A DNA stretch of 64,000 bases from an uncultured Gemmatimonadales bacterium (lineage in GTDB: Bacteria > Gemmatimonadota > Gemmatimonadetes > Gemmatimonadales > Gemmatimonadaceae). The position numbers are program-made. Below, piece by piece: positions 18,001 to 27,000 of the stretch. The stretch's first letter is position 1, and the number at the start of each line of letters is the position of its first letter. Location of the stretch: assembly GCA_963850905.1 (NCBI GenBank), contig CAWKMU010000003.1, positions 1,536,001-1,600,000 on the forward strand, in the 5' to 3' direction.

Positions 18001-21000
18001 AGGGGTTTTGCGCGCGAATTCTGCCCAGTTCTCGCGCACGCTTCGCAATTTGTCTTGGCGCGATTTCCCGGTGAATCTGATGAGCCTTCGAAATACGGAT
18101 GGCCGCATCCGCTCCGGGCGGCCGCGAGCGCCCTTGTACGTTGATCTTACCCCTCCGTCATGGTCGACCCACGCCACGGCGTTCTTGGCCGACGGTGTCG
18201 TGTGGTCGCTCACGGGCGTGGCCTCATGTCAGCCCGACCGGCCGCGGCTCCCTTTGCGCGGCCCCTTCTGGTGTCAACCATGCTCAGCCTCTCCGCACGT
18301 TTCGTGCAGGCGCAAGCGTGGGCGGAAGTCAAGCGAATACAAGTGGTTACGCCGTTTGATACCCTAATCACCTCGCGGAATATGCTGCATGAACCCCACA
18401 CGATCGATGGCGATGTGCTGCGCGCTCGCGCGCGCCATCGCGGAGCCTATCGACTGGTGCGCTTCGTCGCCGCGCAGCAGCCGGTGCCGCCCGACGACGC
18501 GTGCAGCGTCGTGGCAGGCACGACGCCGCTGATGCTGATCGCCGCTCATGCTTGTCACGCCGCGCGGATCGAGGAGACGCGTCGTTGCAGAGTGGCGACT
18601 CAATTGCCAGAGCGCGAGGATGATGTTGCGAGAGGCCAGTAACCGGGGCGTGCTAGTCGGTGGTGGTGCGCCTGACGGTCCGTCATCACTCGTCAGGCGG
18701 GCCAAGCCGCTGCGGGTTCTCTACGTCGAAGCGAACGAGGATGGCACCGTCGGGGGGTCCCATCAACTTGTTTACGATCTCGCACGCAGTGTACCCCGAG
18801 ATCGCATCGATCCCGTCGTACTGTTTTATCAGAACAATGCGTTCGTGGACCGTCTGAGGAGCCACGGGGTCACTGTCCTGTTGTACGACCACTTGCGCGT
18901 GCGCGAGCGCGCGGTCAATGCAACTGGAGGGCTTTTGCGCAGGCGTGCCGAGCAGGTCGCCGCCATCGGGAGGCGCTTCCAGCTACTTCGTCAGCAAAAT
19001 ATCGGTCTGGTCCACCTGAACAATTCCCCGACCGTCGGAGTCGACGACTGGCTGCCGGCTGCGATATGCGCCAACACGCCATGCGTGGTCAACGCGGGCG
19101 GTCTGCTCGGTCGGGATCGTCGCTTCATCCATCGGGCCTTAACGCGGCGCTTTGCGCGGGTGATCGCTGTGAGCGAATACATGGCGGCCGCGCTCCGCGA
19201 GCGCGGTTATCCGGAACGCCAGATCGAATGCGTGAATCTGTCCGTCGACATCGCGCGGTTGCAATCGAGAGTCTCGGCGTCGCGGACCGAGATTCGCACG
19301 AGCCTGAACATACGGCCTGACCGAGTTGTCATCACGATGGTAGGCAACGTCCGACAGTGGAAAGGGCAGCATGTCCTGCTGGAGGCAGTTGAGCTGCTCC
19401 TGCCGGCGGTCCGGGAACGCGTCCATGTGCTATTCGCCGGCGCGGTGTCCGAGGCCGATCGTTCGTATTTCGCCCATCTGCAACAGATCGTTGAGCGCGC
19501 GCACCTGGGCGACAGAGTTCAGTTTCTTGGTGCCCGGGACGACGTTGCTGATCTCCTCGCCGCGTCGGATGTTGCAGTTCACGCGTCGATTCTGCCGGAG
19601 CCATTTGGGCTCGTAATCATCGAGGCAATGGCGCTCGGGACTCCGGTGGTCGCGGCGCGGCTCGGAGCACCGCGCGACATCGTAACCTCGGCATCGGGCC
19701 TGTTGTACGATCCAGAGTCACCACGCGAGTTGGCAGAGCGGCTTACAGAACTCGTGTTGGACGCGGACCTTCGAAAACGTTTGGGCAAAGGCGCGATCGA
19801 TCGAGCCAAGGATTTCGGAGTCGTGCGCTACATCTCGCAGATAATGGCCGTGTACGAGAAGGTAGCACCCGCGCGTGATGACGAGCGTCTGATCGTTTAA
19901 CCTCTCACTCGCAACGTTCCACTCGTCGCCGTCACACAGATTCATTTCGCGAGCCTCGCAATTCGGGGTTGCGAAACGTGCGTGCGGCGGTCATCCTACT
20001 CGCGACAATTGATCGTCGCGTTGGTTGTCCCGATGTGGGCTCCCGCGACAACGGCAAACCCGGCGAAAGCCGGCGACGCAAAGCTCTGGAGGCTACCGCT
20101 CACGCAGCAACACCGCGTGAGTCATGCCAGTCCGGCTACCGAACGGACAACTCACAGAGGACACAGCCATGCGCACTGCGCACGACTGGGGCCGAGCTAT
20201 AGGCCGTCCCCGCACGTCCGCACCGGTAAGCCGCAAGTCGTACTACTTCCGCGCGATCGTCTGCGGCGCAGCTGCGGCACTCGCTGCCTGCGACAACTCC
20301 GCGAAGAACACCACCAATCCAATGGATCCGGTCGCCGCGAGTGGTAGCGGTACCTTCCAGGACGAAGCGGTCCTCGTGATGTATCACGGTGTGGCGTACC
20401 CGCAGGTCAACGTGAAGCCCTCGGCCAACGTCGACATGAAGGTCGGCGAACAGTCGACGTTTACGGCGCGCTTGAACGAGCCCAGTGGCGACGCGTGGAC
20501 CTCGTGCTGCTCGACGTGGAAGAGCTCTGATGCGAGTGTCGCGTCGGTGAGCGTCACGGGTTACGGTGTTCGCGATGGCGAGCGCGGAGCCGTTGTCGCG
20601 CACAAGTCGGGCAAGGCGACGATCACGGTTACGACGCAGAGCGGAACGAAGGGGACGCTGGATGTCACTGTTGGTGATGGCTCCTCTGGAACCGGCTCCG
20701 GTGGCTCGAGCTCCGGCGGCAGTGGCGGGTCAGGCGGCGGCTCTGGGTCACCCCCCTCGAAGACCCCCGCGAAGAGTCCGACCGCGCCACCACCCAGCGG
20801 CAGCTACCATGAGCCGTCGGGCTTCGCGACGCAAATCAACACCGGGTCGATCTCATCGACGCGTGCGGTGAACGTCCTCACCCCGTCGTCGACCAGCCCG
20901 ACTGGTGGCTCGAGCGGAAATCTCACCGCCGCGCCCGGAGGCGGTCTCCGTATGTGGTACCGTCCGAACCTAGTGGCGGGCAACTCGCCGGTCCGATTTG

Positions 21001-24000: not shown

Positions 24001-27000
24001 AAGGCAAACCCGGCGAAAGCCGGGGACGCAAAGCTACGAGGCTACGGTCTGCCCTCAGAGTCGGGCATGCTATGCCAGTCGGGCCGCCGAACAGAGCTGG
24101 AGGGGATCATGGACGCTGCGATCAAACATCGCAGGCTGGCGGTCGCCGCCATCTGTCTCGTGGTGGCGGGTGGCTTTGCATGCTTCCGAGGCGACTCCCT
24201 CGTCGACCCCCCGGGGACAGCAGGCTACCGACCTCCCGACCCCCACGTAACCGCTATCACGCTCGCGCCGACTTCAGTCAATGCGCCGACGGGCGCTCAA
24301 GTCCACATTTCGGCTGACCCTATTGGCCCTTCTGGCGCTCCCGTGGCGGCCGATGTCGTCGCTTGGGTGTCGTCCGACCCCGATGCCGCAACTGTGTCGG
24401 GCTCAGGGATGGTCTCGCTACTTCACCGGGGCAAAACGACGATTACCGCCATCGCGGACGGAGTGACGGCGTCCGTCGCAGCCGTGGCCGAGGCACCGCT
24501 GGCGGCTTCGATGACGGTCACGCCGAGCACCAGCTTGATCGAGGCGGGTCAGCAGGTGCAGCTGATCGCGGTCGCGTACGATGCAACCGGTTCCGTCGAC
24601 TCCGGCGTGACGGTAACTTGGTCGTCCTCAAACACGGGAACGGTATCGGTGTCCAGCGGGGGTCTGGTGACGGCGATCGCGGTCGGCGTGGCAACCATTA
24701 CGGCGTCATCCGGCAGTGTGCGCTCGACGGCGACGATCCAAGTCACCTCCTCTACACCCGCAGTGGCGACGGTATCGGTCGCGCCGAACACGTCGTCGCT
24801 TTATCCTGGGAGCAATGAGCAGTTGACGGCTACGCTAAAGGACGCGGCGGGCGACATCCTGGGTGGCATCCCCGTAGCATGGTCGACATCGAGCGCGGGT
24901 GTTGCTTCCATTTCCGCTAGCGGTGTCGCGTTGGCGAACGCCATCGGATCGGCAACCATAACTGCGACTGCTGGTGGACACAGCGGCACCGCGACAGTGG
25001 ACGTCACGGCTCCGGTCGTCGCGTCGGTGTCTGTCAACCCCAGTTCTGGAACGATTAGCATCGGGCAAATCGAGCAATTCACGGCCACTCCCCTCGACGC
25101 CCAAGGCGCGCGGCTGAGCGTTCAAGTTTCGTGGAGCTCTAGCGACCCGAGCATGGCGTCGGTGTCGGCGAGCGGCGCCGTAACGGGTGATGCGGCGGGA
25201 TCGGTCAGTATCACCGCATCAGCAGGCGGCGTCACCGGCGCCGCGGCGGTGACGGTGCAATCGGGGCCGCCTGGTGGGTACCACGAGCCCTCAGGCATGG
25301 CGACTCAGATCAACACGGGGCCGATTACGTCGACGAGCGTGGTGACCACCTTCAGCCCGTCCACGATGACCTCTACCGGTGAGTGGATTGGGAACCTGAG
25401 TCTTGTGCCGGGAGGGACTGGCCTTCGGCTGACGTACACCACGAGCCTCGCGGCTGGCAACTCGCCGGTGCGCTTTGGCCACGGAATCGCGTCCGCGGGG
25501 ACGGGTTGGTACTATCAGCGCATGAAGGTCCGTTTCTCGTCGAACTGGACCAACGGGAACAATCCAATCATCAAAATGTGTGAGCCGCGGACCGAGCAGA
25601 CTGGTAGCGGTACGGGGCCCAACGAGAACCATGTCATTGGCGGCTGGGCCGGCAGCGCTCCCACCAAGAGCTATCTAACGGTGTTGTTGCAAGGCCCGAA
25701 TAACAATTTCCGGGACCTGATCGAACAGCCGCAGAGTAATCCTCAAGCGAATATGAGTGACGGGAACTGGCACGTCATGGAGGTGCTCTTCGGTCCCGAG
25801 TCATCCCCGGGTGCCGGCAATGGGACGTACCAGGGCTGGGTCGACGGCGTGCAAATCGCGAATTACACCAACGTGCTCTGGCTCGCGCCCGGCAACAATG
25901 TCGGCTGGCCATACCTCATGTTCGACCCGGTGTACGGTGGGACCAAGAGCAGTCCGCCCTATACCATGTACTGGGACGTCGATCAGATCTACGTCAGCAC
26001 CCGCTGATTAGCAGACGGGGCAGGCCCGCCGAGCCCTACTCAATTCTTCGGGTTGCGCTTCCCGCGCGTGCAAGTTCGATGTATCTGGGGATCAGATCAC
26101 ACCCGATCTTCTCCCATGAGTAGTGCCGTTCGACCGTAGCTCGCGCCGCGGCGCCGAGCCGTTTTCGCAGCGCCGCGTCTGTCGTGACGGCTTGCACTGC
26201 CTCGGCGAACGCAACTGGATCGTCCCGAACGAGAATGTTAGCGCCGTCGCACGCCTCGAGTCCCTCACAGCCAACGCTCGTGCTGACCACCGCCTTCCCC
26301 ATCGCCCACGCATCCAAGATCTTGATTCGGGTCCCGCCGCCGACCCGAATCGGCACAATGTAGCACGCGGCTGCTCGAATCGCGGGCCGTACATCCTCCA
26401 CATACCCGGTCAGTTTGACGCCGAACCGTTCCTCATAGGCCCGGCGGTGCAGGTCAGTTGCTCTACCGATCCACTGAACGGGCACCGCCGACCCTGCCGC
26501 TCGCAGATGGGGCAGGATGGACTCGCAAAAGAAATCCAAACCATCTCGATTCGCAAAAGAGCTCAGCCCGCCCACTGCGACGAGACCGGTAGGAGCGACG
26601 TCGGTACTGGGCGTAAATGTGCTTACATCGACCCCGTTGGGCACAACCGCGAATCGGGCAGTGGGAGCAATGGACCTCAACGCTGCCTCGTCGACAGGCG
26701 ATACCGTGAGGTTGAGGGCGACTCGCGGGCACCACAGTCGTTCCTCATCTTCGGTAAGGCGCGCTTGGAGCGCGACGAAATGTTGGCGCAGCACACCTCG
26801 CTCAGCAGCCGCTCGACGACGCAACAGCACTGACTGCGCGTCATGGTGCGTGCAAACAATAGGCAGTCGGCCCAACTCCCCGAAATAGCCGGACAGGTCT
26901 AAGCTGTCGGCGTGCACGAGGTCGAACCGCTGACGAGATATTGCGATCCGCAACCGATGGAGGAAGTCGGCCGATTCATATGCGAACACAGTGTAGGCCC

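What a model noticed while it worked through the whole genome (the two positions that open the first line are those of the whole stretch)
20043..26007. c-di-GMP riboswitches gate secreted polysaccharide-lyase-like lipoproteins
Three c-di-GMP-I riboswitch aptamers (C3:1556043-1556143, 1557911-1558010, 1559993-1560091) each end 17-25 nt before the start codon of one of three tandem paralogous lipoprotein genes (g01481, g01482, g01483). The genes lie inside an exopolysaccharide/glycosylation gene region of more than 30 kb; no exosortase gene was found. The proteins join Big_2 Ig-like domains to a shared C-terminal beta-jelly-roll domain that models like alginate and glucuronan lyases (PL36, PL20, PL14). 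A fourth aptamer (C3:2005082-2005178) precedes a right-handed beta-helix, pectate-lyase-like lipoprotein (g01875). c-di-GMP therefore appears to control, probably at translation start, a set of secreted enzymes that c [...]
Evidence so far: - Rfam RF01051/RF03167 hits of 60-72 bits, over the cut (rna.tsv call 3; call 5). - Gene order and distances. - Lipobox and shared C-terminal domain. - Weak Pfam Polysacc_lyase PF14099 hit in g01481 (E 7e-4); the source's look-up lists the same family for homologue P0146. - AlphaFold2 of g01481 with 22 sequences: the jelly-roll part has pLDDT mostly 75-94. - Foldseek matches: alginate lyase Aly36B 6kcv (E 1.5e-9), glucuronan lyase 2zzj, PL14 lyases 5gmt and 3gne. 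- g01875 has Beta_helix, NosD and DUF5123. - All 9 other genomes of the genus have 2-8 aptamers each, some clustered in the same way. - Region content, and no exosortase hit.
(Added by a program. Inside this text positions count along the whole contig: contig position 1,536,001 is position 1 of the stretch shown here. "Call 12" and the like, gene names such as g00115 and contig names such as C1 are that model's own, and its searches are not shown. The text may have been shortened before it was handed on; [...] marks where a part breaks off. The agent that wrote the report below was given it as the finding of a first reader that could run no searches.)

Follow-up and report, generated by a model that had tools for sequence, protein, structure and literature searches.

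The report
c-di-GMP riboswitches before lyase-like lipoproteins
Three genuine c-di-GMP-sensing RNA switches each sit just before the start of one of three related surface-lipoprotein genes, which carry a sugar-chain-cutting-enzyme-like fold, inside a slime (exopolysaccharide) gene cluster of an uncultured soil bacterium: a new example of a known kind of switch, with unstudied target proteins.

Summary
Three c-di-GMP-I aptamers (60.0, 60.3 and 71.1 bits) end 25, 25 and 16 nt before the ATGs of three tandem paralogous lipoprotein genes in an exopolysaccharide locus of a Gemmatimonadales MAG.

- **Family membership.** It passes no lyase family threshold, and catalytic residues could not be mapped. 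Lyase activity is therefore likely but unproven.
  - The genome has five aptamers, not four. The fifth precedes a 41-aa mini-lipoprotein.
  - The 'GGC variant' label for the third aptamer is an artefact.
  - The aptamer-gene link holds for nearly every jelly-roll gene in the genus and for 3 metagenome loci.
  - All 55 genus aptamers lie 16-28 nt from a start codon, which points to translational control.
- **Regulon.** Across the family these switches mostly precede Big_2 lipoproteins. In single cases they precede PL5, GH6, beta-helix or lectin proteins.
- **Sign of control.** It is unresolved, with a weak lean to OFF.

I class this as a new member of a known kind, of moderate interest.

The parts
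20001..20020 (+). Conserved 5' leader hairpin H0 of gA (6-bp stem CGCGAC/GUCGCG). Its 5' arm repeats the first bases of the aptamer.
   Evidence: hairpin call; MFE; 89.5% of cells paired in 10 leaders.
20022..20039 (+). 5' flank of gA complementary to the ribosome-binding region (5' strand of proposed closing helix P0).
   Evidence: MFE gives 7+2+6 pairs. duplex energy is -25.7 kcal/mol against -18.0 for shuffles (z -2.1). In one search helix 3 is 89.8% paired, with 1 of 13 pairs compensatory.
20043..20143 (+). c-di-GMP-I aptamer A (leader type I).
   Evidence: RF01051, 60.0 bits, E 3.2e-9.
20151..20169 (+). Ribosome-binding region of gA (SD AGAGGA at 20156-20161), running through the A of the ATG. 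It is the 3' strand of P0.
20169..21524 (+). gA: 451-aa lipoprotein with one Big_2 domain, a Gly/Ser/Pro linker and a C-terminal jelly roll (residues 210-451).
21546..21582 (+). Terminator-like hairpin after gA (16-bp stem).
   Evidence: -38.1 kcal/mol, z -8.2.
21869..21907 (+). gB leader: H0 hairpin and the 5' strand of P0.
   Evidence: MFE; duplex z -3.0.
21911..22010 (+). c-di-GMP-I aptamer B (leader type I). The leader is 90.9% identical to that of gA.
22036..23388 (+). gB: 450-aa lipoprotein with the same architecture as gA (70.7% identical).
23497..23533 (+). Terminator-like hairpin after gB (17-bp stem).
   Evidence: -48.4 kcal/mol for the 91-nt stretch, z -5.6.
23971..23992 (+). 5' flank of aptamer C. 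It holds the C-run (23981-23986) that pairs with the SD in the predicted fold.
23994..24092 (+). c-di-GMP-I aptamer C (leader type II). It is labelled RF03167 by clan competition but is canonical.
   Evidence: 71.1 bits; RF01051, 72.5 bits.
24109..26007 (+). gC: 632-aa lipoprotein with four Big_2 domains and the same C-terminal jelly roll (SD GGAGGGG at 24099-24105).
45637..47493 (-). NDP-sugar dehydrogenase (context). It makes uronic-acid sugar nucleotides, the kind of residue a lyase needs in its substrate.
   Evidence: UDPG_MGDP_dh N, central and C domains; TIGR03026, 263 bits against cut-off 189.8.
59861..60922 (+). Response regulator with a degenerate GGDEF (GRTEF) and an RxxD motif five residues upstream (context). 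It is a possible protein receptor of c-di-GMP.

Best explanation
Each of the three genes is its own transcription unit. Each leader carries a canonical c-di-GMP-I aptamer whose 3' end lies 16-25 nt from the start codon. c-di-GMP therefore acts on the mRNA itself and sets how accessible the ribosome-binding site is (translational control).

The products are membrane-anchored lipoproteins. Ig-like Big_2 spacers hold out a C-terminal beta-jelly-roll domain. This domain is a distant, unclassified relative of the PL14/PL20/PL36 polysaccharide lyases.

Its most likely job is to cut or trim the uronic-acid-containing exopolysaccharide made by the surrounding locus. I infer this; it is not shown.

The leaders suggest that ligand-stabilised closure of the outer aptamer helix P1 favours a co-axial helix between the 5' flank and the SD-AUG region. 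Under that model high c-di-GMP would repress these proteins and low c-di-GMP would release them, giving matrix trimming or dispersal. The sign is the weakest step.

My odds:
- Genuine c-di-GMP riboswitches: 0.95.
- Translational control: 0.8.
- Glycan-cleaving enzyme: about 0.55.
- OFF rather than ON: about 0.55.
For: **Aptamers**
- Three Rfam matches over the cut-off and five in the genome.
- The aptamers show the GAAA tetraloop, the AAA linker and P2 (alignments).
- On 23 type II genus leaders, RNAalifold recovers the aptamer. 4 of 27 pairs keep pairing through changes on both sides.

**Linkage of aptamer and jelly-roll gene**
- In the genus, the jelly-roll hits map next to aptamers: G065 x4, G068 x3, G064 x2, G062 2 of 3, and one each in G063, G043, G066 and G067.
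- This includes copies only about 30% identical.
- The one clear exception is G062:C111, a 1521-aa ORF.
- The 842-aa 'big' class, also behind an aptamer, ends in a divergent copy of the same domain (hhalign probability 95%, E 4e-8).
- Of 9 metagenome loci, the 3 with more than 1.8 kb upstream all have the aptamer.

**Translational control**
- The ATG lies 16-28 nt after the aptamer in 55 of 55 genus leaders, by my start-codon parse.
- The scan found no terminator-like site between aptamer and ATG.
- Strong hairpins follow gA and gB.
- The gA and gB leaders are 90.9% identical, against 70.7% for the proteins.

**Fold**
- AlphaFold2 on 40 sequences gives pLDDT 92.3 and pTM 0.90.
- Foldseek gives the same top six.
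- Profile searches against PDB sequences hit only lyases significantly: PL36 at E 1e-5, and PL36 at 7e-7 with PL20 at 9e-4 using remote members.
- Of 88 remote homologues scanned, 5 pass the PF14099 cut-off and 1 passes PF21294.
- The nearest named clusters in the ESM Atlas are PF21294 (0.95) and PF14099 (0.94).
- The only invariant residue in 40 sequences is a Lys (K101 of the domain, K310 of gA). It is kept in the 'big' class. Lys is the catalytic residue in PL36 and is essential in PL14 (passages of PMC13709232).

**Convergent targets**
- In the same genus, aptamers also precede a PL5 Alginate_lyase lipoprotein (PF05426, E 3e-31). They also precede ten beta-helix lipoprotein genes, of which the seven scanned all match Beta_helix.
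- In another genus an aptamer precedes a GH6 lipoprotein.

**Substrate**
- An NDP-sugar dehydrogenase is encoded in the locus.

**Sign of control**
- In 29 type II leaders, forcing the aptamer fold lowers the mean SD unpaired probability from 0.38 to 0.16. With shuffled 5' flanks the change is 0.45 to 0.39.
- Cognate 5'-flank:RBS duplexes are stronger than deranged partners among 12 subfamily representatives: -18.4 against -16.4 kcal/mol, with 2.1% of 7,390 derangements as low.
Against: **Against an enzyme**
- No window protein reaches any lyase family cut-off. PF14099 scores 19.9 and 13.4 bits against a cut-off of 29.9, and gB has no hit at all. NCBIfam finds nothing.
- Identity to solved lyases is 10-16%.
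- The profile alignments to PL36 and PL20 cover scaffold strands, not known catalytic residues.
- I could not obtain a residue-level structural alignment, so the equivalence of the Lys is untested.
- Across the family the commonest riboswitch target is a Big_2 lipoprotein of unknown C-terminus (16 of 26). Two targets carry ricin lectin domains. This fits adhesins or matrix-binding proteins as well.

**Against the proposed sign**
- For the window's own genes the folding model shows no ligand-dependent change: gA 0.46 to 0.47, gB 0.34 to 0.35, gC 0.33 to 0.43.
- Without the 5' flank, the free-state fold pairs the SD with the 5' strand of P2, which would give an ON switch.
- P0 is kept mostly by sequence conservation: 1 of 13 pairs in its main helix is compensatory.
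- The transcription start is unknown, and no sigma-70-like promoter was found.
Confidence: 0.5

Rival explanations
1. The proteins are not enzymes. They would be c-di-GMP-controlled glycan-binding surface or matrix lipoproteins (adhesins or EPS anchors). In this reading the jelly roll is a lectin-like module that has kept the lyase fold, held out on Big_2 stalks.
For: - Big_2 repeats are typical of surface adhesins.
- 16 of 26 riboswitch-downstream proteins across the family carry Big_2, and two carry ricin-type lectin domains.
- No lyase family threshold is met.
- Catalytic residues are unverified.
Against: - All four top structural matches are lyases, 1.6-3.9 Z units above the next match.
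- The significant sequence-profile matches to this domain are all lyases; the one other significant hit aligns with the Big_2 flank.
- Across 40 divergent sequences the family keeps an invariant Lys plus near-invariant Tyr, Gln and Glu.
- The same riboswitch class in the same genus controls a bona fide PL5 domain protein and beta-helix proteins.
Confidence: 0.3
2. The riboswitches are ON switches. c-di-GMP would free the ribosome-binding site, so the lipoproteins are made together with the exopolysaccharide. This would resemble the lyases and hydrolases encoded inside alginate, Pel, Psl and cellulose operons, which serve biosynthesis.
For: - When gA and gB are folded from the aptamer start, the ligand-free MFE pairs CUCUG of the P2 5' strand with CAGAG of the SD. 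It also pairs the P2 3' strand with a downstream CGGAC. Forming the aptamer would undo both.
- The genes lie inside the biosynthetic locus.
- Asp at +2 in gA and gB would keep them at the inner membrane, facing the periplasm (recalled E. coli rule).
- Both ON and OFF c-di-GMP-I switches are known. Vc2 is called an off-switch in the abstract of bioRxiv 10.1101/617340 (listing). That Vc1 is an on-switch is recalled.
Against: - With the conserved 5' flank included, the RBS is paired in both states for gA, gB and gC.
- In 29 type II relatives the aptamer fold lowers SD accessibility.
- The CUCUG stretch belongs to the conserved aptamer. Its match to the SD is not seen in other type I leaders that have different SDs.
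Confidence: 0.4
3. The domain is a glycoside hydrolase or transglycosylase of the GH16-like jelly-roll kind, not a lyase.
For: - One homologue has a weak 3-keto-disaccharide hydrolase hit.
Against: - No ExDxxE-type catalytic strand is present in the alignment (by inspection).
- No sequence-profile hit to any GH16 chain was found.
- Lyases rank above all hydrolases.
Confidence: 0.1
4. The aptamers sense another cyclic dinucleotide, such as 3'3'-cGAMP, or some other ligand.
For: - One aptamer was labelled as the RF03167 variant.
- GEMM-I relatives with changed specificity exist (recalled).
Against: - All five aptamers score 60-72.5 bits on RF01051.
- Aptamer C has the canonical A where RF03167 has G (alignment).
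- All have G before GCAAA, where cGAMP-type aptamers are recalled to have A.
Confidence: 0.04

Closest known systems
c-di-GMP-I (GEMM-I) riboswitches, Rfam RF01051, such as Vibrio cholerae Vc2 (tfoY) and Vc1 (gbpA)
   Same: - Same aptamer family, over the cut-off.
- 5' regulatory position.
- Targets are extracellular or membrane proteins, as first noted for GEMM (PMC1950547, passages).
- Control through the ribosome-binding site has precedent in Vc2 (recalled; listing).
   Different: - The host is Gemmatimonadota. No paper in the held library joins riboswitch, c-di-GMP and Gemmatimonadetes on this topic (one search gave 1 unrelated hit).
- Three separately switched tandem paralogues lie inside an EPS locus.
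- The expression platform appears to use the 5' flank as anti-RBS.
- The targets are lyase-like lipoproteins.
PL36 alginate lyase Aly36B (6kcv, 6kcw, 6kzk)
   Same: - Beta-jelly roll.
- The lyase family with the best sequence-profile E-value (1e-5 and 7e-7).
- Lys-based catalysis in Aly36B (review passage), and an invariant Lys here.
   Different: - 13-15% identity.
- The profile match covers only the C-terminal half.
- Equivalence of the Lys is not tested.
- Aly36B has no lipid anchor or Big_2 stalk as far as I recall.
PL14 lyases vAL-1 (3a0n, 3gne) and AkAly30 (5gmt)
   Same: - PF21294 is the nearest named cluster by language-model features. It gives sub-threshold hits in many remote homologues.
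   Different: - No PF21294 hit in the window proteins.
- No PDB sequence hit to PL14.
- The Ser partner of the catalytic Lys is not conserved at the spacing I checked by eye.
PL20 glucuronan lyase (2zzj) and Pfam PF14099 Polysacc_lyase
   Same: - Profile E 0.06 and 9e-4.
- PF14099 is the only lyase family that hits the window proteins.
- It is passed by 5 of 88 remote homologues.
   Different: The window proteins score 19.9, none and 13.4 bits against a cut-off of 29.9.
Glycan-cleaving enzymes encoded within EPS operons (AlgL, PelA, PslG, BcsZ; recalled, not tested here)
   Same: A polymer-cleaving protein is encoded among the biosynthesis genes of the polymer.
   Different: - Those enzymes are not known to me to be under their own riboswitches.
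- Here there are three paralogues, each with a c-di-GMP aptamer.
- The folds differ.

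Membership tests
c-di-GMP-I riboswitch (RF01051) | Covariance-model score over the gathering cut-off (35 bits). | tested here: met
   Scores are 60.0 and 60.3 bits and 72.5 bits for aptamer C. 0 of 14 control genomes ring.
c-di-GMP-I riboswitch (RF01051) | A hairpin with a GNRA tetraloop, an AAA linker, and a P2 hairpin with a receptor-like bulge. | tested here: met
   The alignments show the GAAA loop, GCAAAGC and P2. P2 pairs covary in 23 genus leaders (4 pairs with compensatory change).
c-di-GMP-I riboswitch (RF01051) | Sits in the 5' UTR of the regulated gene, with an expression platform. | tested here: met
   16-25 nt to the ATG here, and 16-28 nt in 55 of 55 genus leaders. 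The platform structure itself is only modelled.
c-di-GMP-I riboswitch (RF01051) | Binds c-di-GMP selectively. | not testable with these tools
   This needs in-line probing or ITC. Only the canonical nucleotides at recalled contact positions were seen.
c-di-GMP-I-GGC variant (RF03167) | G in place of A in the linker after the first hairpin (consensus GCGAA). | tested here: not met
   Aptamer C reads GCAAAG, and RF01051 scores it higher.
Pfam PF14099 Polysacc_lyase (PL20/PL13-type) | Score over the gathering cut-off (29.9 bits). | tested here: not met
   gA scores 19.9 bits, gB has no hit and gC scores 13.4 bits. 5 of 88 remote homologues pass.
Pfam PF21294 Polysacc_lyase_14 (PL14) | Score over the gathering cut-off (27 bits). 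| tested here: not met
   No hit in the window proteins at E up to 1. 1 of 88 remote homologues passes.
Beta-jelly-roll polysaccharide lyases (PL14, PL20, PL36) | Beta-jelly-roll fold superimposable on solved members. | tested here: met
   [not shown]
Beta-jelly-roll polysaccharide lyases (PL14, PL20, PL36) | Catalytic residues in the cleft: Lys in PL36, and Lys plus Ser in PL14. | tested here: inconclusive
   An invariant Lys is present. No residue-level structural alignment was available, and the profile alignments miss the catalytic region. The primary papers are not held.
Beta-jelly-roll polysaccharide lyases (PL14, PL20, PL36) | Beta-elimination on a uronic-acid polymer. | not testable with these tools
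   Only context is available: an NDP-sugar dehydrogenase in the locus.
GH16-type glycoside hydrolases | ExDxxE catalytic strand. | tested here: not met
   No such motif appears in the 40-sequence alignment (by inspection).
Bacterial lipoproteins | Signal peptide ending in a lipobox with an invariant Cys. | tested here: met
   The sequences read LAAC, LAAC and GFAC. 40 of 55 genus targets fit a strict lipobox pattern. No dedicated predictor was available.
XrtA/PEP-CTERM-type EPS locus | Marker families of the system and an exosortase. | tested here: inconclusive
   TIGR03019 is over its cut-off (286.5 against 260.35). TIGR03006 is just under (271.3 against 276.2), and several others are below. 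There is no PF09721 hit in an 82%-complete genome. The PEP-CTERM search rang nowhere, controls included.

The most novel reading that the evidence does not exclude
In this Gemmatimonadales lineage, c-di-GMP is read mainly by mRNA rather than by protein effectors. Dozens of near-identical translational riboswitch cassettes have been copied in front of lipoprotein genes.

Within one EPS locus they gate a founding, still unclassified polysaccharide-lyase family. That family uses an invariant Lys, as PL36 does.

Two leader types (type I for gA and gB, type II for gC, the mini-lipoprotein and the beta-helix protein) would give different thresholds, or even opposite signs. The cell could then switch from building to trimming or shedding its matrix as c-di-GMP falls.
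Probability: 0.2. Interest if true: 0.75.

Novelty: new member of a known kind. Interest (0 to 1): 0.45.

Why it matters
If the jelly-roll domain cleaves the locus's own polymer, this would be a direct RNA-level link between the biofilm second messenger and matrix-remodelling enzymes. It would sit in a phylum (Gemmatimonadota) where c-di-GMP signalling is essentially unstudied.

The domain would also found a new polysaccharide-lyase family. The representative library holds 337 clusters at E up to 1e-3.

The lineage-wide set gives a natural series for dissecting translational c-di-GMP-I expression platforms. There are 55 leaders in 10 genomes of the genus, and aptamers occur in 50 of 61 genomes of the family.

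If the proteins only bind glycans, the finding is still a compact catalogue of c-di-GMP-controlled surface lipoproteins.

Tried and rejected
- **NCBIfam on the three proteins:** no family.
- **Phage collection (tblastn with the domain):** no match. There is therefore no depolymerase annotation to borrow.
- **RNA runs:** none was listed as holder for window 19900-26100. Expression and 5' ends could not be examined.
- **Promoters:** no sigma-70-like site in 19850-26200.
- **RNAalifold on 23 type II leaders:** it recovered the aptamer but not a flank:RBS helix, because the flanks align poorly.
- **Metagenome scan:** The closer alignment A4 gave 9 loci.
  - L124 holds only a domain-length ORF (243 aa) with an upstream stop and no aptamer.
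  - The other five loci without an aptamer have under 600 nt upstream of the match.
- **Catalytic residues:** I tried to place Aly36B K143, M171 and Y185 from the three PDB sequences. All three print identically over chain positions 139-236, so the mutated residues lie N-terminal to the aligned part and could not be mapped. The primary papers on Aly36B and vAL-1 are not held.
- **PEP-CTERM motif search:** it rang nowhere, controls included.
- **Other ideas dropped:**
  - A match between coding nt +16 to +21 (GACUGG) and the P2 3' strand does not covary in the L101 group.
  - The ATG at 20124 as start codon, because it lies inside the aptamer and is not conserved.
- **Earlier-findings look-ups:** by place and by sequence gave nothing.

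Full report
**Observation**

A Rfam scan of the whole 64-kb window finds three matches over the curated cut-offs, all on the + strand:
- 20043-20143: RF01051, 60.0 bits.
- 21911-22010: RF01051, 60.3 bits.
- 23994-24092: RF03167, 71.1 bits.

The open frames and sequence put the start codons at 20169, 22036 and 24109. That is 25, 25 and 16 nt after the aptamers, each behind a purine-rich Shine-Dalgarno. An earlier in-frame ATG at 20124 lies inside the aptamer and is CAC in the gB copy, so I do not take it as the start.

The third aptamer is not a real 'GGC variant'. RF01051 scores it 72.5 bits, and it carries A where the RF03167 consensus has G (alignment).

**The genes**

- gA (451 aa) and gB (450 aa) are 70.7% identical. 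gC (632 aa) shares the C-terminal 242 residues at 68-69%.
- All three have a signal peptide ending in a lipobox Cys.
- Pfam finds one Big_2 domain in gA and gB and four in gC. It finds only sub-threshold PF14099 Polysacc_lyase hits: 19.9 bits, none and 13.4 bits, against a cut-off of 29.9. NCBIfam finds nothing.
- Strong hairpins follow gA (16-bp stem, z -8.2) and gB (17-bp stem, z -5.6). Each gene therefore looks like its own transcription unit with its own switch.
- The gA and gB leaders are 90.9% identical, more than the proteins.

**The C-terminal domain**

*Distribution*
- The family is small. The word-indexed search gave 26 proteins. The exhaustive search of 1.84 billion representatives gave 337 clusters at E up to 1e-3 and 81 at 1e-10.
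- I scanned 88 of the 150 listed homologues, choosing the shorter ones. Many give sub-threshold PF14099 or PF21294 (PL14) hits. Five pass the PF14099 cut-off and one passes PF21294.

*Sequence-profile evidence*
- A 40-sequence profile hits PL36 alginate lyase Aly36B at E 1e-5 and PL20 glucuronan lyase at E 0.06 among all PDB sequences.
- A profile of 25 remote members improves these to 7e-7 and 9e-4.

*Structural evidence*
- AlphaFold2 on the 40-sequence alignment gives pLDDT 92.3 and pTM 0.90.
- Language-model features point the same way: PF21294 cluster 0.95 and PF14099 cluster 0.94.

*Catalytic residues*
- The only invariant residue in the 40 sequences is a Lys (K101 of the domain, K310 of gA). 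Tyr81, Gln140 and Glu168 are near-invariant.
- In review passages, Aly36B uses a single Lys as both acid and base, and vAL-1 needs Lys197 and Ser219.
- I could not test whether the Lys residues coincide. No residue-level superposition was available. The profile alignments cover scaffold strands only. The primary papers are not held.

The fold and remote homology to lyases are therefore well supported. Membership of any named lyase family is not met, and catalysis is inferred.

**The regulon**

*Own genome.* It has five aptamers. Three are in the window. One precedes a beta-helix lipoprotein (Beta_helix, NosD, DUF5123). A fifth lies 3.5 kb left of the window, before a 41-aa mini-lipoprotein followed by a terminator-like hairpin.

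*Genus.*
- All 10 genomes have aptamers, 2-8 each and 55 in all. 9 of 10 have the jelly-roll domain.
- Mapping the two tables shows an aptamer just upstream of nearly every jelly-roll gene, including copies only about 30% identical. The clear exception is a 1521-aa ORF in G062.
- I fetched all 55 leaders and parsed the downstream genes. The start codon lies 16-28 nt after the aptamer in 55 of 55. 40 of 55 products fit a strict lipobox pattern.

*Target classes in the genus* (Pfam on 31 of 52 fetched proteins; the rest were close duplicates or short):
- gA-type and gC-type jelly-roll proteins.
- An 842-aa class with six Big_2 domains. Its C-terminus is a divergent copy of the same domain with the Lys kept (hhalign probability 95%, E 4e-8).
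- Mini-lipoproteins.
- Ten beta-helix lipoprotein genes by my parse; the seven I scanned all match Beta_helix.
- One PL5 Alginate_lyase lipoprotein (PF05426, E 3e-31).
- Di-haem DHOR proteins.
- Several families with no Pfam match.

*Family.* 50 of 61 genomes have the aptamer, but only 4 of 61 have the domain. These tallies include three genomes flagged unpublished (G007, G033, G034). Of 26 downstream proteins I examined from 26 other loci, most cut at about 493 aa by the locus end:
- 16 carry Big_2.
- 1 is a GH6.
- 2 carry ricin lectins.
- 1 is a beta-helix protein.
- 1 is pilin-like.
- 1 is a REC-GGDEF.
- 5 have no match.

One protein carries both Big_2 and a ricin lectin, so the categories add to 27.

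*Metagenomes.* Of 9 loci encoding the domain, the three with more than 1.8 kb upstream all have the aptamer in front.

*Organism.* Record titles of the closest genomes name an uncultured Gemmatimonadales bacterium.

**How the switch may work**

Nothing fits between aptamer and ATG except the ribosome-binding site, and the scan calls no terminator there. Control of translation initiation is therefore the natural reading.

Two leader types exist:
- **Type I** (gA and gB): outer helix P1 is CCGCG/CGAACGG.
- **Type II** (gC, the mini-lipoprotein, the beta-helix and PL5 genes): P1 is CUGCG/CGAACAG, a covarying pair.

In both types the 5' flank is complementary to the SD-AUG region.

*gA and gB (type I)*
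- For gA the predicted fold pairs 20022-20039 with 20151-20169 (15 pairs, through the A of the AUG), co-axial with P1.
- Duplex energies beat shuffles for gA and gB (z -2.1 and -3.0).
- Across 12 dissimilar subfamily representatives, cognate flank:RBS duplexes are stronger than deranged ones: -18.4 against -16.4 kcal/mol, with 2.1% of 7,390 derangements as low.
- On 10 gA-type leaders, two of them from metagenomes, the main P0 helix is 89.8% paired. Only 1 of its 13 pairs shows a compensatory change. Conservation could therefore be of sequence rather than structure.

*Effect of forcing the aptamer fold*
- In 29 type II leaders it lowers the mean SD accessibility from 0.38 to 0.16. With shuffled flanks the change is 0.45 to 0.39.
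- In 17 type I leaders nothing changes (0.32 to 0.34).
- The window's own three leaders show no drop.
- 9 of the 55 leaders lacked the anchor motif and were not modelled.

*The opposite reading.* Folding gA and gB without the flank gives an ON logic: the SD pairs with the 5' strand of P2 in the free state.

I lean weakly to OFF switches (about 0.55) and mark the sign as unresolved. The transcription start is unknown.

**Context**

- The window is an EPS locus. It holds GT2 and GT4 transferases, a Wzy-like polymerase, a flippase, a priming sugar transferase, a Wzz/tyrosine-kinase protein, deacetylases and an AsnB-like amidotransferase.
- It carries XrtA/PEP-CTERM-type markers. TIGR03019 is over its cut-off and TIGR03006 is just under. 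No exosortase hit was found in the 82%-complete genome.
- An NDP-sugar dehydrogenase (45637-47493) implies uronic-acid residues in the polymer, which a lyase needs.
- A response regulator with a degenerate GGDEF (GRTEF) and an RxxD five residues upstream (59861-60922) may be a protein receptor of c-di-GMP in the same locus.

**Verdict**

- The aptamers, their one-to-one link to the paralogous lipoprotein genes, and the lyase-like fold are real. They are conserved well beyond chance.
- That the proteins cleave the exopolysaccharide is the best-supported reading (about 0.55). It is backed by the convergent presence of PL5, GH6 and beta-helix targets under the same switch.
- A glycan-binding adhesin role (about 0.3) is not excluded, given the Big_2 and lectin theme across the family.
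- No paper in the held library links c-di-GMP riboswitches with polysaccharide lyases or with Gemmatimonadetes in this sense. I judged the listings by title and abstract only.
I did not check it.
- This is a new member of a known kind of switch, with an unstudied and possibly new lyase family as its target.

Noticed in passing
L002:1501-1600 and 1619-1744 (G000:C3:1532397-1532496 and downstream; 3.5 kb left of the window): A fifth c-di-GMP-I aptamer (70.7 bits) lies 17 nt before a 41-aa mini-lipoprotein gene followed by a terminator-like hairpin. The same aptamer-gene pair occurs in G065, G068, G064 and G062, 6.5-24 kb from the jelly-roll genes.
   Followed up: partly
window 59861-60922 (+): A response-regulator receiver is fused to a degenerate GGDEF domain (GRTEF in place of GGDEF), with an RxxD motif (RTSD) five residues upstream. 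This is the layout of an I-site c-di-GMP receptor, and it sits in the same EPS locus. In another genus (L008), a REC-GGDEF gene itself follows a c-di-GMP aptamer.
   Followed up: partly
window 20169-20200 and 22036-22067; L101, L108, L111, L113: The first codons (M-R-x-A-H-D-W/C-G-R-A) and an mRNA hairpin GCGC-NNN-GCGC over codons 2-4, with a freely varying loop codon, are shared by gA-type jelly-roll genes and by di-haem DHOR genes that follow the same leader type. This suggests the riboswitch plus 5' coding region moves or is kept as one cassette.
   Followed up: no
G068:C14:58583-59315 and 61132-61873; G065:C1:1714855-1715588: Some riboswitch-linked jelly-roll copies in relatives carry in-frame stops or frameshifts. 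They may be pseudogenes or MAG assembly errors.
   Followed up: no
L079 (G062:C56:9304-9399 and downstream): A c-di-GMP-I aptamer precedes a 402-aa lipoprotein with a PL5 Alginate_lyase domain (PF05426, E 3e-31). This fold is unrelated to the jelly roll.
   Followed up: partly
L010, L028, L029, L017 (other genera of the family): Aptamers lie 10-25 nt before a GH6 lipoprotein, two ricin-lectin lipoproteins and a type IV pilin-like protein.
   Followed up: no
window 87-1403, 47442-50351, 51900-53900: XrtA/PEP-CTERM-system marker genes are present: FemAB-type (TIGR03019, over the cut-off), an amidotransferase, and a DUF3473 deacetylase fused to GT2. No exosortase was detected in the 82%-complete genome.
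   Followed up: partly
window 11939-14863 (+): A 974-aa fusion joins an adenylyl-sulfate kinase with a PEP-utilising (PPDK-like) enzyme (NF004508, 924.7 bits) inside the EPS region. It may bear on sulfation or phosphorylation of the polymer.
   Followed up: no
window 23389-23993: A 605-nt spacer between gB and aptamer C has no Rfam match and no ORF that I trust. Its content was not examined.
   Followed up: no
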